From positions 1-64,000 of IMG/VR virus record IMGVR_UViG_3300035698_022074: 64,000 nt of DNA; one strand, 5' to 3'. The number at the start of each line of letters is the position of its first letter. The first letter of the stretch is position 1. Of the stretch, positions 14,939 through 15,464 are shown piece by piece. The position numbers and the translations under genes are program-made. The DNA is from a virus. The notes beneath the pieces were generated by a model, which worked only from the letters and a program-made list of their open reading frames with translations, searched no databases and was not told the DNA's origin.

Positions 14939-15015
14939 GTACCCTTAGCTCAGTCTGGCAGAGCAGCGGCTTCTAACCCCGCAGCGCGTTGGTTCAAATC
15001 CAACAGGGTATACCA
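14939..15015 (+). tRNA. tRNA with ambiguous anticodon: CUA (amber suppressor) by canonical numbering, or Arg(UCU) if the stem is shifted
   Basis: Acceptor gtaccct/agggtat, D arm gctcagtctggcagagc. Anticodon region gcggc-ttctaac-cccgc reads 34-36 as CTA with a C-C mismatch at 31-39. The alternative loop cttctaa reads TCT but leaves only a 3-bp stem. T arm gttgg-ttcaaat-ccaac, aCCA. Confidence 0.5.
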
Positions 15016-15019
15016 TCTT

Positions 15020-15100
15020 GCGGAGTTAGCTCAGTCCGGTAGAGCACTTGAGTATTTATATTCAAGAGGTCAGAGGTTCAAATCCTGCTACTCCGCACCA
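15020..15100 (+). tRNA. Atypical tRNA-like: canonical acceptor and D arm but a 20-nt anticodon arm (8-bp hairpin cttgagta-ttta-tattcaag) and a weak T stem
   Basis: Acceptor gcggagt/actccgc, D arm gctcagtccggtagagc, T-loop ttcaaat, aCCA. The anticodon cannot be assigned. Confidence 0.35.
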
Positions 15101-15119
15101 TTTTTACAAGGAATCTAAA

Positions 15120-15464
15120 ATGTCTTAGATACACGAAGGCGACAAACTTTATGTAGTTGTCAGAAGTGACCTATCACCTGGTAGCCAAATTGCTCAAGCT
15201 TGTCACGGACTTAGGCAATTTTCAAATGACTTCCCAGACATTGATAAAGAGTGGTTTGAAAACTCAAACTACATTGCAGTACTTAACTGCAAGAATGAAC
15301 AAAAAATAATTGAGCTAATTGAGAAAGCTAAATCACGTAATATCAAAATCGCAATCTTTAGAGAGCCTGACTTTGATAACATGATTACGTGTGTTGCACT
15401 TGAACCTAGTAATGAATCTAGGAGAGTTTGCAGTTGTTTCCCTTTAGCACTAAAAAATATGTAA
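15120..15464 (+). CDS. peptidyl-tRNA hydrolase, PTH2 family, with in-frame UAG at codon 3 (ATG TCT TAG ATA CAC…)
   Basis: RBS aagga at 7 nt then ATG at 15120. TAG at 15126. The next 111 codons, DKLYVVVRSDLSPGSQIAQACHG…EWFENSNYIAVL…IAIFREPDFDNMITCVALEP, resemble archaeal/eukaryotic Pth2 (MVVVIRNDLGMGKGKMVAQGGHA…). There is no in-frame ATG, GTG or TTG between the TAG and the homologous region. Confidence 0.55.

What the first reader, a model, noticed from the sequence alone, without database searches (positions are those of the whole stretch)
14939..15464. PTH2 peptidyl-tRNA hydrolase with an in-frame UAG at codon 3, next to a tRNA whose anticodon can be read as CUA
The only start for a clear PTH2 homologue is RBS aagga followed by ATG-TCT-TAG. 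The frame then runs 111 codons (VVVRSDLSPGSQIAQACHG…) with no alternative ATG, GTG or TTG. About 100 bp upstream, the tRNA at 14939 reads anticodon CUA under canonical numbering, or UCU if the stem is shifted. In the same window a TAG separates a Cys-rich ORF from the release-factor ORF in the same frame at 13200. Three other TAG stops are followed by a second stop within 2-6 codons, at 3887, 16528 and 27898. Together these suggest UAG is leaky or suppressed during infection.
Basis: partly seen in the sequence, partly recalled or inferred. Interest (0 to 1): 0.85.

Follow-up and report, generated by a model that had tools for sequence, protein, structure and literature searches.

The report
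Suppressor-tRNA-gated phage PTH2-like gene
A large phage carries an amber-suppressor tRNA next to a peptidyl-tRNA-hydrolase-like gene that can only be translated by reading through a UAG at its third codon. The same tRNA and early-stop pairing recurs in dozens of unrelated environmental phages, so it looks like a deliberate translational switch rather than an error.

Summary
ARAGORN and Rfam both call a canonical tRNA with anticodon CUA at 14939-15015. The PTH2-like ORF begins SD-ATG-TCT-TAG at 15120, and its next ATG/GTG/TTG lies 84 codons after the TAG.

It is not an error. Of 40 distinct homologous loci (42-58% identity; metagenomes, IMG/VR, 460-735 kb phages), 34 have a stop at codon 3-8 just before the conserved IKEGDKLY. 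That stop is TAG in 33. The single TAA case sits beside two tRNA-UUA genes. In 41 PTH2-like loci, 35 of 76 tRNAs are suppressors, against 0 of 354 in 82 control phage loci. The genes never end in TAG (0 of 31). Codons after the TAG vary only at third positions.

The window is not TAG-recoded: PTH2 is the only read-through-dependent gene among about 61, and TAG ends 9 ordinary genes.

Tandem stops after TAG are at background. The TAG at 13200 is an ordinary, non-conserved junction.

Best reading: suppressor-dependent gating of PTH2-like synthesis in a standard-code phage. This is a new variant of phage stop-codon recoding. Its physiological purpose is only inferred.

The parts
14939..15015 (+). 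Amber-suppressor tRNA. Anticodon CUA is at 14973-14975 and the CCA end is encoded. The anticodon stem has 4 base pairs plus a C31.C39 mismatch. G1.U72 and A73.
   Evidence: ARAGORN. Rfam RF00005, 56.7 bits, full-length canonical alignment. Sequence.
15108..15112 (+). Shine-Dalgarno AAGGA, 7 nt upstream of the ATG at 15120 and 13 nt upstream of the TAG.
   Evidence: Sequence. Relatives also place GGAG, AGGAG or AAGGA 5-9 nt before the ATG, not before the TAG or the Ile codon.
15120..15128 (+). Start plus gate: ATG TCT TAG. It is a two-sense-codon mini-ORF unless UAG is decoded. The next codon, ATA, gives the context UAG-A.
   Evidence: Conserved as ATG-N(1-6 codons)-TAG in 33 distinct loci and as ATG-ACT-TAA in 1.
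15120..15464 (+). PTH2-like coding sequence: M-S-[UAG]-IHEGDKLYVVVRSDLSPGSQIAQACHG...KNM, ending in TAA.
   Evidence: Pfam PF01981, 2.3e-12. AlphaFold2 pLDDT 96.8; Foldseek top hits are archaeal Pth2 and human Bit1, TM 0.72-0.79. Third-position-only variation in the codons after the TAG.
14858..14930 (+). tRNA-like sequence X1. Anticodon loop UUUUUGA, aberrant T-loop, no CCA. It flanks the suppressor tRNA.
   Evidence: Rfam, 44.8 bits. Not called by ARAGORN.
15020..15100 (+). tRNA-like sequence X2. It has a 10-nt anticodon loop GUAUUUAUAU, a bulged T-stem and an encoded CCA. It ends 7 nt before the PTH2 SD.
   Evidence: Rfam, 38.7 bits. Not called by ARAGORN. In strain L008 an 84-nt deletion fuses it to the suppressor tRNA.
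13209..13887 (+). Short RF1-like release factor (225 aa, no domain 1) encoded in two frames. Frame 0 runs 13209-13319 and the +1 frame runs 13321-13887.
   Evidence: The conceptual product gives contiguous PCRF (101-194/194) and RF-1 Pfam matches across the junction. NCBIfam scores: RF1 185 bits, RF2 121, PrfH 72.
13309..13323 (+). prfB-type +1 frameshift cassette GGAGG-TCA-TTT-TAG-C. It has an SD-like element, a 3-nt spacer, a slippery UUU, an in-frame UAG and a C.
   Evidence: Sequence. The same cassette is at the same place in 59 of 84 family members: CTT TGA C in 44, CTT/TTT TAG C in 14, CTT TAA C in 1.
13200..13202 (+). TAG ending the 77-codon ORF 12969-13202, two codons before the RF ATG. 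It is probably an ordinary stop, or not coding at all.
   Evidence: No family hit for the ORF. Its frame is broken by a 1-nt indel in the 99%-identical L008.

Best explanation
The phage encodes an amber-suppressor tRNA(CUA) and, 105 nt downstream on the same strand, a PTH2-fold hydrolase gene. The gene's reading frame is closed by UAG at codon 3.

Ribosomes start at the SD-positioned AUG and make fMet-Ser. With only host RF1 present they terminate or drop off, so no enzyme is made. When the phage tRNA(CUA) is expressed and charged, it inserts an amino acid at position 3 and the full 114-residue protein is produced. Position 3 lies in a tail outside the folded domain, where residue identity does not matter.

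The UAG is therefore a translational gate. It makes PTH2-like synthesis proportional to suppressor activity relative to RF1.

Shown: the gene anatomy, the tRNA, the conservation, and the covariation of stop type with anticodon.

Inferred: that read-through actually happens, which amino acid is inserted, and the purpose. The most likely purpose is to supply extra peptidyl-tRNA recycling (or a suppressor-tRNA-specific hydrolase activity) exactly when stop-codon suppression is active. At that time drop-off and ribosome stalling should rise.

The same window also encodes a tmRNA and an RF1-like factor. Synthesis of that factor needs a +1 frameshift at a UAG. The suppressor should turn PTH2 on and turn full-length RF down.
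For: 1. Canonical tRNA(CUA) at 14939-15015.
2. No alternative start. The next ATG/GTG/TTG is 84 codons after the TAG, and the PTH2 domain begins 5 codons after it.
3. In 40 distinct homologous loci (42-58% identity), 34 have a stop at codon 3-8. In every case an SD sits 5-9 nt before the upstream ATG (GTG in L031). No canonical start lies between the stop and the domain, except in L032.
4. The stop is TAG in 33 loci. 22 of these show tRNA-CUA in the short flank available. The only TAA case (L024) has two tRNA-UUA and no CUA.
5. In 41 PTH2-like loci, 35 of 76 tRNAs are suppressors. In 82 control loci from similar large phages the figure is 0 of 354. Fisher p = 1.6e-30.
6. Codons right after the TAG (G-D-K-L-Y) are invariant at positions 1 and 2 and free at position 3 in 29 loci, so they are translated in this frame.
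7. Homologues without a stop start M-x(0-3)-IKEGDKLY (for example MARIKEGDKLY and MIKEGDKLY). This matches the length of M-S-X-IHEGDKLY.
8. The terminal stop of early-TAG genes is never TAG: TAA 16, TGA 15.
9. The neighbouring suppressors belong to several unrelated tRNA classes. This fits a gate in a position that tolerates any residue.
10. The genome is otherwise standard-code.
11. The PTH2 fold is confirmed.
Against: - There is no direct evidence of read-through, of charging of the tRNA, or of the enzyme's activity.
- The tRNA has a C31.C39 mismatch.
- In L008, a 99%-identical strain, an 84-nt deletion destroys the tRNA(CUA) while the PTH2 gene keeps its TAG. The pair is therefore dispensable, or another suppressor exists elsewhere.
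- The residues reported as catalytic in archaeal Pth2 (my recollection: Lys of GK, Asp and Thr of DAGxT) align to S/Y/L and to E-P-D-x-D in this subfamily. The substrate may not be ordinary peptidyl-tRNA.
- Several family members beside suppressor tRNAs have no early stop (L007, L040, L129, Myrna). The linkage is therefore wider than the gate.
- The loci are phylogenetically related, so the counts overstate independence.
- The rest of this phage genome was not seen.
Confidence: 0.72

Rival explanations
1. Genome-wide code switch. The phage belongs to the known class of TAG-recoded (code-15-like) phages. The PTH2 TAG would be one of many recoded codons marking late genes, and the recoded block would lie outside this window.
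For: Phage stop-codon recoding with suppressor tRNAs and release factors is established (Borges et al. preprint). Two relatives carry a second, internal TAG in the PTH2-like gene at positions where others have Q/E or D/E (L006 codon 30, L045 codon 36).
Against: - In 64 kb that includes baseplate and tail genes, only PTH2 needs read-through.
- ORF coverage is 0.820 under the standard code and 0.825 with TAG as sense. A 49-kb stretch of LR756501 gives 0.813 and 0.825.
- TAG terminates 9 of about 61 genes.
- Randomly recoded codons would not hold codon 3-5 across lineages at about 50% identity.
- The encoded release factor is RF1-like, not the RF2 expected for TAG recoding.
Confidence: 0.1
2. Leader mini-ORF with termination-reinitiation. 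AUG-NNN-UAG would be a regulatory upstream ORF. The enzyme would be initiated by the terminating ribosome at the adjacent AUA/AUU/AUC codon, independently of any suppressor tRNA.
For: The codon after the stop is ATH in 27 of 34 loci, ATG in L032 and GTT in L012. Myrna gp84 starts at a GTG directly after GTG-TAG.
Against: - ATH is the conserved Ile of IKEGDKLY. It is also present in homologues with ordinary ATG starts upstream.
- In L025, L031, L042, L043 and L023, 1-6 non-start codons separate the TAG from that Ile.
- Reinitiation would accept any stop. Instead 33 of 34 are TAG, and the one TAA coincides with ochre tRNAs.
- TAG is avoided as the terminal stop.
- The cognate suppressor gene is physically linked.
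Confidence: 0.08
3. Dead gene or error. The TAG would be a nonsense mutation or sequencing error in a decaying PTH2 gene, and the tRNA(CUA) would be unrelated.
For: L008 lacks an intact tRNA(CUA) but keeps the TAG. Only 13 called proteins of this subfamily exist in a 5.8-billion-protein database.
Against: - The TAG is identical in two assemblies.
- It is conserved in 33 distinct loci under purifying selection.
- No other stops or frameshifts occur in the 111 codons.
- The scarcity of called proteins is what gene callers would produce for ORFs without a start.
Confidence: 0.02
4. UAG-initiating tRNA. The CUA tRNA would be an initiator-like tRNA that starts translation at the UAG itself.
For: It has a weak 1-72 pair (G1.U72) and two of the three G-C pairs of an initiator anticodon stem.
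Against: - SD spacing fits the ATG (5-9 nt), not the TAG (11-18 nt), in all loci.
- An ATG (GTG in L031) always precedes the TAG in frame.
- The linked suppressors include Gln-like and long-variable-arm tRNAs that are not initiator-like.
Confidence: 0.03

Closest known systems
Stop-codon recoding in phages (TAG to Gln 'code 15' crAss-like and Lak phages; Ivanova 2014; Borges et al. 2021/2022)
   Same: A phage-encoded suppressor tRNA(CUA) makes genes with in-frame TAG translatable only after the tRNA is made. The proposed role is timing of gene expression. Release factors are co-encoded.
   Different: In those phages 26-71% of genes carry in-frame stops, mostly in late and lysis genes. Here the genome is standard-code. 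TAG still ends 15% of genes. A single gene carries one position-conserved TAG at codon 3-5. The partner gene is a PTH2-like enzyme not mentioned in that work ('hydrolase' occurs 0 times). The encoded RF is RF1-like.
prfB (RF2) autoregulatory +1 frameshift: SD-like, 3-nt spacer, CUU UGA C
   Same: The RF gene at 13209-13887 has the same cassette geometry, GGAGG-TCA-TTT-TAG-C, at the equivalent position in domain 2. Both devices read out how the cell currently decodes one stop codon.
   Different: The protein is RF1-like and lacks domain 1. The stop is UAG here and in 13 other family members. A 2025 survey of 12,753 bacterial genomes found no convincing prfA frameshift, and one of its section headings states that TAG is not detected in the prfB motif. 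The PTH2 gate uses in-frame read-through, not frameshifting.
Phage lambda bar minigenes (AUG AUA stop) and peptidyl-tRNA drop-off (from my own knowledge, not tested here)
   Same: An SD-driven two-codon ORF is the kind of template known to release short peptidyl-tRNAs, which are the substrate of peptidyl-tRNA hydrolase.
   Different: Here the mini-ORF is in frame with, and fused to, a hydrolase-family gene. It is paired with a cognate suppressor tRNA.
Archaeal and eukaryotic Pth2 (PF01981; M. jannaschii MJ0051, S. solfataricus Pth2, human PTH2/Bit1)
   Same: Same fold (TM 0.72-0.79) and a Pfam match above threshold.
   Different: Identity is 20-24%. The GK lysine and the DAGxT motif are replaced. 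The subfamily was found only in phage and metagenome contigs, with none in 185,579 bacterial and archaeal species genomes.
Suppressor tRNAs of standard-code jumbo phages with no known target (for example Xanthomonas phage XacN1)
   Same: XacN1 carries two tRNA(CUA) genes, and its authors could not find target genes.
   Different: XacN1's PTH2 (ORF295) is the canonical type with a normal start. The ORF next to its suppressors is unrelated. XacN1 does not share this module.

Membership tests
PTH2 peptidyl-tRNA hydrolase (PF01981) | Sequence match to the family model above the curated threshold | tested here: met
   47.6 bits against a cut-off of 23, E = 2.3e-12, profile positions 2-103 of 115. 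The NCBIfam arch_pth2 equivalog scores only 30.9 against a cut-off of 82, so it is not an equivalog.
PTH2 peptidyl-tRNA hydrolase (PF01981) | Pth2 alpha/beta fold | tested here: met
   AlphaFold2 pLDDT 96.8. Foldseek PDB hits 2zv3, 3erj, 1wn2, 1xty and 1q7s, E 3e-8 to 3e-6, TM 0.72-0.79.
PTH2 peptidyl-tRNA hydrolase (PF01981) | Conserved active-site residues (Lys of the G-K motif; Asp and Thr of D-A-G-x-T; recalled from mutagenesis of S. solfataricus Pth2) | tested here: not met
   In the profile alignment to 2zv3, 1wn2 and 24bt the Lys aligns to S/Y/L/Q, and RDAGxT aligns to REPDxD. Invariant in the subfamily instead are R12, D14, G18, Q20, Q23, H26, E79, P80 and T87.
PTH2 peptidyl-tRNA hydrolase (PF01981) | Hydrolysis of N-blocked aminoacyl- or peptidyl-tRNA | not testable with these tools
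   This needs an enzyme assay or complementation of E. coli pth(ts).
Amber-suppressor tRNA | Canonical cloverleaf with CUA at positions 34-36, U33 and a purine at 37 | tested here: met
   ARAGORN. Rfam 56.7 bits against a gathering score of 29, loop UUCUAAC.
Amber-suppressor tRNA | Aminoacylation and decoding of UAG in vivo | not testable with these tools
   Indirect support only: covariation of early-stop type with anticodon and avoidance of TAG as the terminal stop.
Pyrrolysine system (ARAGORN labels the gene 'tRNA-Pyl') | tRNA-Pyl architecture and pylS/pylBCD genes | tested here: not met
   The tRNA aligns full-length to the general tRNA model, with a normal D-loop (GG present) and a 5-nt variable loop. 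No Pyl genes were found among the ORFs scanned. The label reflects the anticodon only.
TAG-recoded (code-15-like) phage genome | A large fraction of genes with in-frame TAG, and fragmented ORFs under the standard code | tested here: not met
   1 of about 61 genes. Coverage 0.820 against 0.825. TAG is used as a stop 9 times. Only this 64-kb window was seen.
prfB-type programmed +1 frameshift | SD-like element, 3-nt spacer, slippery CUU, in-frame stop followed by C, with the ORF continuing in +1 | tested here: met
   GGAGG TCA TTT TAG C at 13309-13323. The Pfam PCRF match is contiguous across the junction. The slippery codon is UUU here and CUU in 58 relatives.
prfB-type programmed +1 frameshift | The gene encodes RF2 and the shift-site stop is UGA, the codon RF2 itself reads | tested here: not met
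   The protein scores RF1 185 bits against RF2 121, and it has P-P-N where RF1 has P-x-T. The stop is UAG.

The most novel reading that the evidence does not exclude
The suppressor tRNA and the PTH2-like enzyme may form a dedicated two-component switch found only in phages. The enzyme would act on the suppressor's own acylated or peptidyl form, giving feedback on UAG read-through. Together with an RF1-like factor whose synthesis requires a +1 frameshift at UAG, it would form a reciprocal circuit. That circuit would flip the infected cell between 'UAG = stop' and 'UAG = sense' without the phage recoding its own genes.
Probability: 0.15. Interest if true: 0.9.

Novelty: new variant of a known kind. 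Interest (0 to 1): 0.78.

Why it matters
**A target for orphan suppressors.** Suppressor tRNAs in standard-code phages have had no known targets. The XacN1 authors say so explicitly. This gives at least one lineage-spanning target: a gene whose only route to expression is the suppressor.

**Under-annotated family.** Gene callers systematically miss this gene family because it lacks a usable start. Only 13 called proteins exist, against dozens of loci found by tblastn.

**A compact natural switch.** The module is a tRNA-dependent translational gate that can be tested directly with reporters. It may be useful as an orthogonal switch.

**A link to ribosome rescue.** It ties nonsense suppression to peptidyl-tRNA recycling, since tmRNA and an RF1-like factor sit in the same window.

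**A second open question.** The companion observation is an RF1-like phage family with a prfB-type frameshift that uses UAG or UGA. Reviews and a 2025 survey state that no RF1/UAG counterpart of the prfB frameshift is known.

Tried and rejected
- **Nearest relatives by DNA.** blastn of the region against 50,697 phage records found nothing but a tRNA.
- **XacN1 as a cultured example.** Rejected. ORF295 is a canonical PTH2 with a normal start, and the ORF beside its two tRNA-Sup genes is unrelated.
- **Identity of the inserted amino acid.** The window tRNA is no closer than 71% to any of the phage's own tRNAs (best match tRNA-Thr). The suppressors next to PTH2-like genes fall into several classes: U1-A72/G73 Gln-like, long-variable-arm, and others. 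Unresolved.
- **Tandem back-up stops after TAG.** At background.
- **TAG 13200 as a read-through junction.** Not conserved.
- **TAG 50718 between same-frame ORFs 50394-50720 and 50721-51449.** An ATG follows the TAG immediately, and neither ORF has a family hit. Treated as two genes and not resolved.
- **In-frame TAG counts in short flanks of relatives.** The heuristic was too noisy in GC-rich loci to be used beyond 'no pervasive recoding'.
- **Covariation between the RF tripeptide and the shift-site stop.** None seen. PPT occurs with TGA, TAG, TAA and no shift site.
- **Bacterial or archaeal homologues or prophages.** None found in 185,579 species genomes.
- **Promoter and terminator scan between the tRNAs and PTH2.** Nothing above shuffled expectation.
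- **Literature.** No paper in the library links PTH2 with suppressor tRNAs in phages or describes a phage RF frameshift.
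Full report
**1. What is in the sequence**

The window is a phage-like region. Its GC content is 40.6% and nearly all genes are on the + strand. It carries 39 tRNA genes and a tmRNA. It also encodes a baseplate wedge protein, a helicase, PrkA, SpoVR, PhoH/PIN and a TilS-like protein.

At 14939-15015 ARAGORN calls a tRNA with anticodon CUA. The Rfam tRNA model aligns it full-length at 56.7 bits with the loop UUCUAAC (U33, CUA, A37). 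Its only oddity is a C31.C39 mismatch. The alternative UCU reading is not supported by either program.

Two further tRNA-like sequences flank it, at 14858-14930 and 15020-15100. ARAGORN rejects both. The second has a 10-nt anticodon loop.

Seven nucleotides after the second tRNA-like sequence comes AAGGA (15108-15112). Seven nucleotides later comes ATG TCT TAG ATA CAC GAA GGC GAC AAA CTT TAT. The frame continues for 111 codons to TAA at 15462-15464.

Pfam PTH2 matches from the K of KLYVVV onward. The next canonical start codon is 84 codons beyond the TAG. An AlphaFold2 model (pLDDT 96.8) matches archaeal Pth2 and human Bit1 structures at TM 0.72-0.79.

**2. Is it an accident?**

No. tblastn-based scans of IMG/VR and JGI metagenomes returned 40 loci. 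One of them, L008, is the same phage. Three uncultured 460-735 kb phages and Mycobacterium phage Myrna came from the phage collection.

After removing duplicates, 34 of 40 distinct loci have an in-frame stop between an SD-positioned ATG (GTG in L031) and the conserved IKEGDKLY. The stop is at codon 3 in 20 loci, codon 4 in 12, codon 5 in 1 and codon 8 in 1. The stop is TAG in 33.

The one exception, L024, reads ATG ACT TAA ATA. Its flank holds two tRNA-UUA genes and no tRNA-CUA.

Twenty-two of the 33 TAG loci show a tRNA-CUA within the few kilobases available, always on the same strand. Most of those without one are contigs of 1-2 kb.

Over 41 PTH2-like loci, 35 of 76 tRNAs are suppressors. 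The control was 82 loci from comparable large phages, fetched with the release factor. They hold 354 tRNAs and no suppressor (Fisher p = 1.6e-30).

**3. Is the segment after the TAG translated, and from where?**

In 29 loci the codons for G-D-K-L-Y directly after the stop are invariant at positions 1 and 2. They vary freely at position 3 (GGC/GGT/GGA 13/11/5; CTN 14/6/5/4; TAT/TAC 16/13). This is the signature of a translated frame.

Homologues without a stop begin MARIKEGDKLY, MATIKEGDKLY, MIKEGDKLY, MITPGDKLY or MNINAGDKLY. The upstream ATG therefore gives a protein of the normal length.

The SD lies 5-9 nt before that ATG in all loci and is too far from the TAG or the Ile codon.

Reinitiation at the Ile codon is unlikely for three reasons. 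One to six non-start codons intervene in five loci. Any stop would serve for reinitiation, yet TAG is almost universal and tracks the tRNA anticodon. And the genes never use TAG as their own terminator (TAA 16, TGA 15, TAG 0 of 31).

**4. Is the phage recoded?**

Not in what can be seen. TAG ends 9 of about 61 genes. Only PTH2 has a start, at most 8 codons, a TAG and then a long ORF with no downstream start.

Coverage by ORFs of at least 100 codons is 0.820 under the standard code and 0.825 with TAG as sense. A 49-kb stretch of the 735-kb phage LR756501 gives 0.813 and 0.825.

Known recoded phages have in-frame stops in 26-71% of genes. The neighbouring suppressors are of several unrelated types. 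This fits a gate placed in a tail where any residue will do.

**5.

A second stop within six codons follows 4/9 TAG, 14/33 TAA and 4/19 TGA stops. There is no signal there.

The TAG at 13200 ends a 77-codon ORF with no family match. A 1-nt indel in the 99%-identical L008 changes that ORF's frame. The in-frame relation to the release factor is therefore incidental.

**6.

The gene starts at 13209 (MSTVIIEIRAGEGGDD...RRSF) and runs into TAG at 13320. The rest of the protein is in the +1 frame from 13321. The joined product gives contiguous PCRF and RF-1 matches. It scores as RF1 (185 bits) rather than RF2 (121) or PrfH (72), and it lacks domain 1.

The site GGAGG-TCA-TTT-TAG-C has the geometry of the prfB frameshift cassette. 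IMG/VR holds 282 relatives. Of the 84 family members examined, 44 have GGAGG-NNN-CTT-TGA-C, 14 have TAG, 1 has TAA and 24 have no shift site. All members tested score as RF1-like, and most carry P-P-T.

The library's literature says frameshifting is known for prfB and not prfA. A section heading in the 2025 survey states that TAG is not detected in the prfB motif. The 2016 review says a UAG/RF1 counterpart is unknown.

Zero-frame read-through of this UAG ends after five codons. The suppressor should therefore lower RF synthesis while raising PTH2 synthesis. That reciprocity is my inference.

**7. Mechanism proposed**

Shown: the anatomy, the conservation, the stop-anticodon covariation and the linkage.

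Inferred:
- The tRNA is charged and decodes the UAG.
- Without the tRNA the mRNA is a two-codon minigene.
- PTH2-like synthesis therefore reports suppressor activity relative to RF1.

The purpose is the weakest step. Plausibly, extra peptidyl-tRNA recycling is needed when stop codons are being suppressed. Alternatively the enzyme acts on the suppressor tRNA itself.

**8. Caveats**

- The residues I recall as catalytic in archaeal Pth2 are not conserved in this subfamily.
- Several members next to suppressor tRNAs have no early stop (L007, L040, L129, Myrna).
- In L008 an 84-nt deletion between the shared GGTTCAAATCC of the suppressor and the adjacent tRNA-like sequence removes the functional tRNA, while the TAG remains. 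The pair can therefore be lost.
- The loci are not phylogenetically independent.
- Only 64 kb of the genome was seen.

**9. Novelty**

The general principle is known: a phage suppressor tRNA enables genes with in-frame stops.

The following were not found in the searchable literature:
- a single, position-conserved early stop in a phage-specific PTH2-like gene;
- its tight linkage to the cognate suppressor;
- its occurrence in standard-code phages.

No homologue was found in 185,579 bacterial and archaeal genomes. Only 13 proteins of the family have ever been called. I rate it a new variant of a known kind, of high interest to people working on recoding and phage translation.

Noticed in passing
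window 13209-13887; related loci L002, L003, L043, L049-L128: A large phage family (282 IMG/VR relatives) of short, domain-1-less, RF1-like release factors. They carry a prfB-style +1 frameshift cassette, GGAGG-NNN-CTT-stop-C. Of the 84 members examined, the stop is TGA in 44, TAG in 14, TAA in 1 and absent in 24. The window has TTT TAG C. The tripeptide is PPT, PPN or PPS and does not covary with the stop. No paper in the library describes this.
   Followed up: partly
window 15020-15100: A tRNA-like sequence (Rfam 38.7 bits). It has a good acceptor stem, D-arm and encoded CCA, but a 10-nt anticodon loop GUAUUUAUAU and a bulged T-stem. It lies directly between the suppressor tRNA and the PTH2 SD. 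It may be a processing signal or a decayed tRNA.
   Followed up: partly
window 14858-14930: A tRNA-like sequence (Rfam 44.8 bits). Its anticodon loop is UUUUUGA (UUU). It has an aberrant T-loop UGAAAGC and no CCA. ARAGORN does not call it.
   Followed up: no
window ~14991-15074 versus L008:2712-3007: A 99%-identical assembly of the same phage has an 84-nt deletion. It joins the 5' two-thirds of the suppressor tRNA to the 3' end of the tRNA-like X2 through the shared GGTTCAAATCC. This natural variant has no intact tRNA(CUA) but keeps the TAG in PTH2.
   Followed up: partly
L130:1932-2087 and L131:135-290: A normal-start member of the PTH2-like subfamily is preceded by tRNA-Val(AAC). Next to that is a tRNA for which ARAGORN reports a four-base anticodon 'uaac' (8-nt loop). 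This is another unusual tRNA beside this gene family.
   Followed up: no
L048:3466-3537 (Mycobacterium phage Myrna, record 33522-33593): ARAGORN reads anticodon CUA for a gene annotated tRNA-Ser. It lies 130 nt downstream of the PTH2-like gp84. The annotated GTG start of gp84 is immediately preceded by GTG TAG.
   Followed up: partly
L043 (Ga0098052_1000486) 786-3333: This is the closest relative that carries both genes. It has an RF with a CTT TGA C shift site, tRNA-UCA (2563-2638), two tRNA-CUA (2798-2872 and 4003-4075), and PTH2-like with ATG GCT TAG TAC GAA ATC. It therefore holds both opal and amber suppressors in one locus.
   Followed up: partly
window 25243-25890 and 25904-25980: A TilS-like PP-loop protein (PF01171, 2.5e-36) sits directly upstream of a tRNA with anticodon CAU. 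That tRNA may therefore be a lysidine-modified tRNA-Ile2 rather than tRNA-Met.
   Followed up: no
window 50394-51449: Two ORFs of 108 and 242 aa lie in the same frame and are separated only by TAG-ATG at 50718-50723. Neither has a family match. I treated them as two genes, but read-through fusion is not excluded.
   Followed up: partly
window 3979-6666; 19904-24417: The phage encodes a major-vault-protein-like protein (MVP shoulder and Vault_3 domains). It also has a block encoding a roughly 400-codon ORF at about 19904-21106, then SpoVR and PrkA. By synteny with a relative's NUDIX-DUF444-SpoVR block, that ORF is probably DUF444/YeaH. I did not scan this ORF against Pfam.
   Followed up: no
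window 7102-7192 and 9111-9200: tRNA-Lys(UUU) and tRNA-Asn(GUU) are called at 91 and 90 nt. That is unusually long for these isoacceptors, so they may contain insertions or introns.
   Followed up: no
window 30901-31268: A phage-encoded tmRNA with tag peptide ANNNSHFQTALAA. It is further ribosome-rescue equipment in the same genome as the suppressor, the RF1-like factor and the PTH2-like gene.
   Followed up: no
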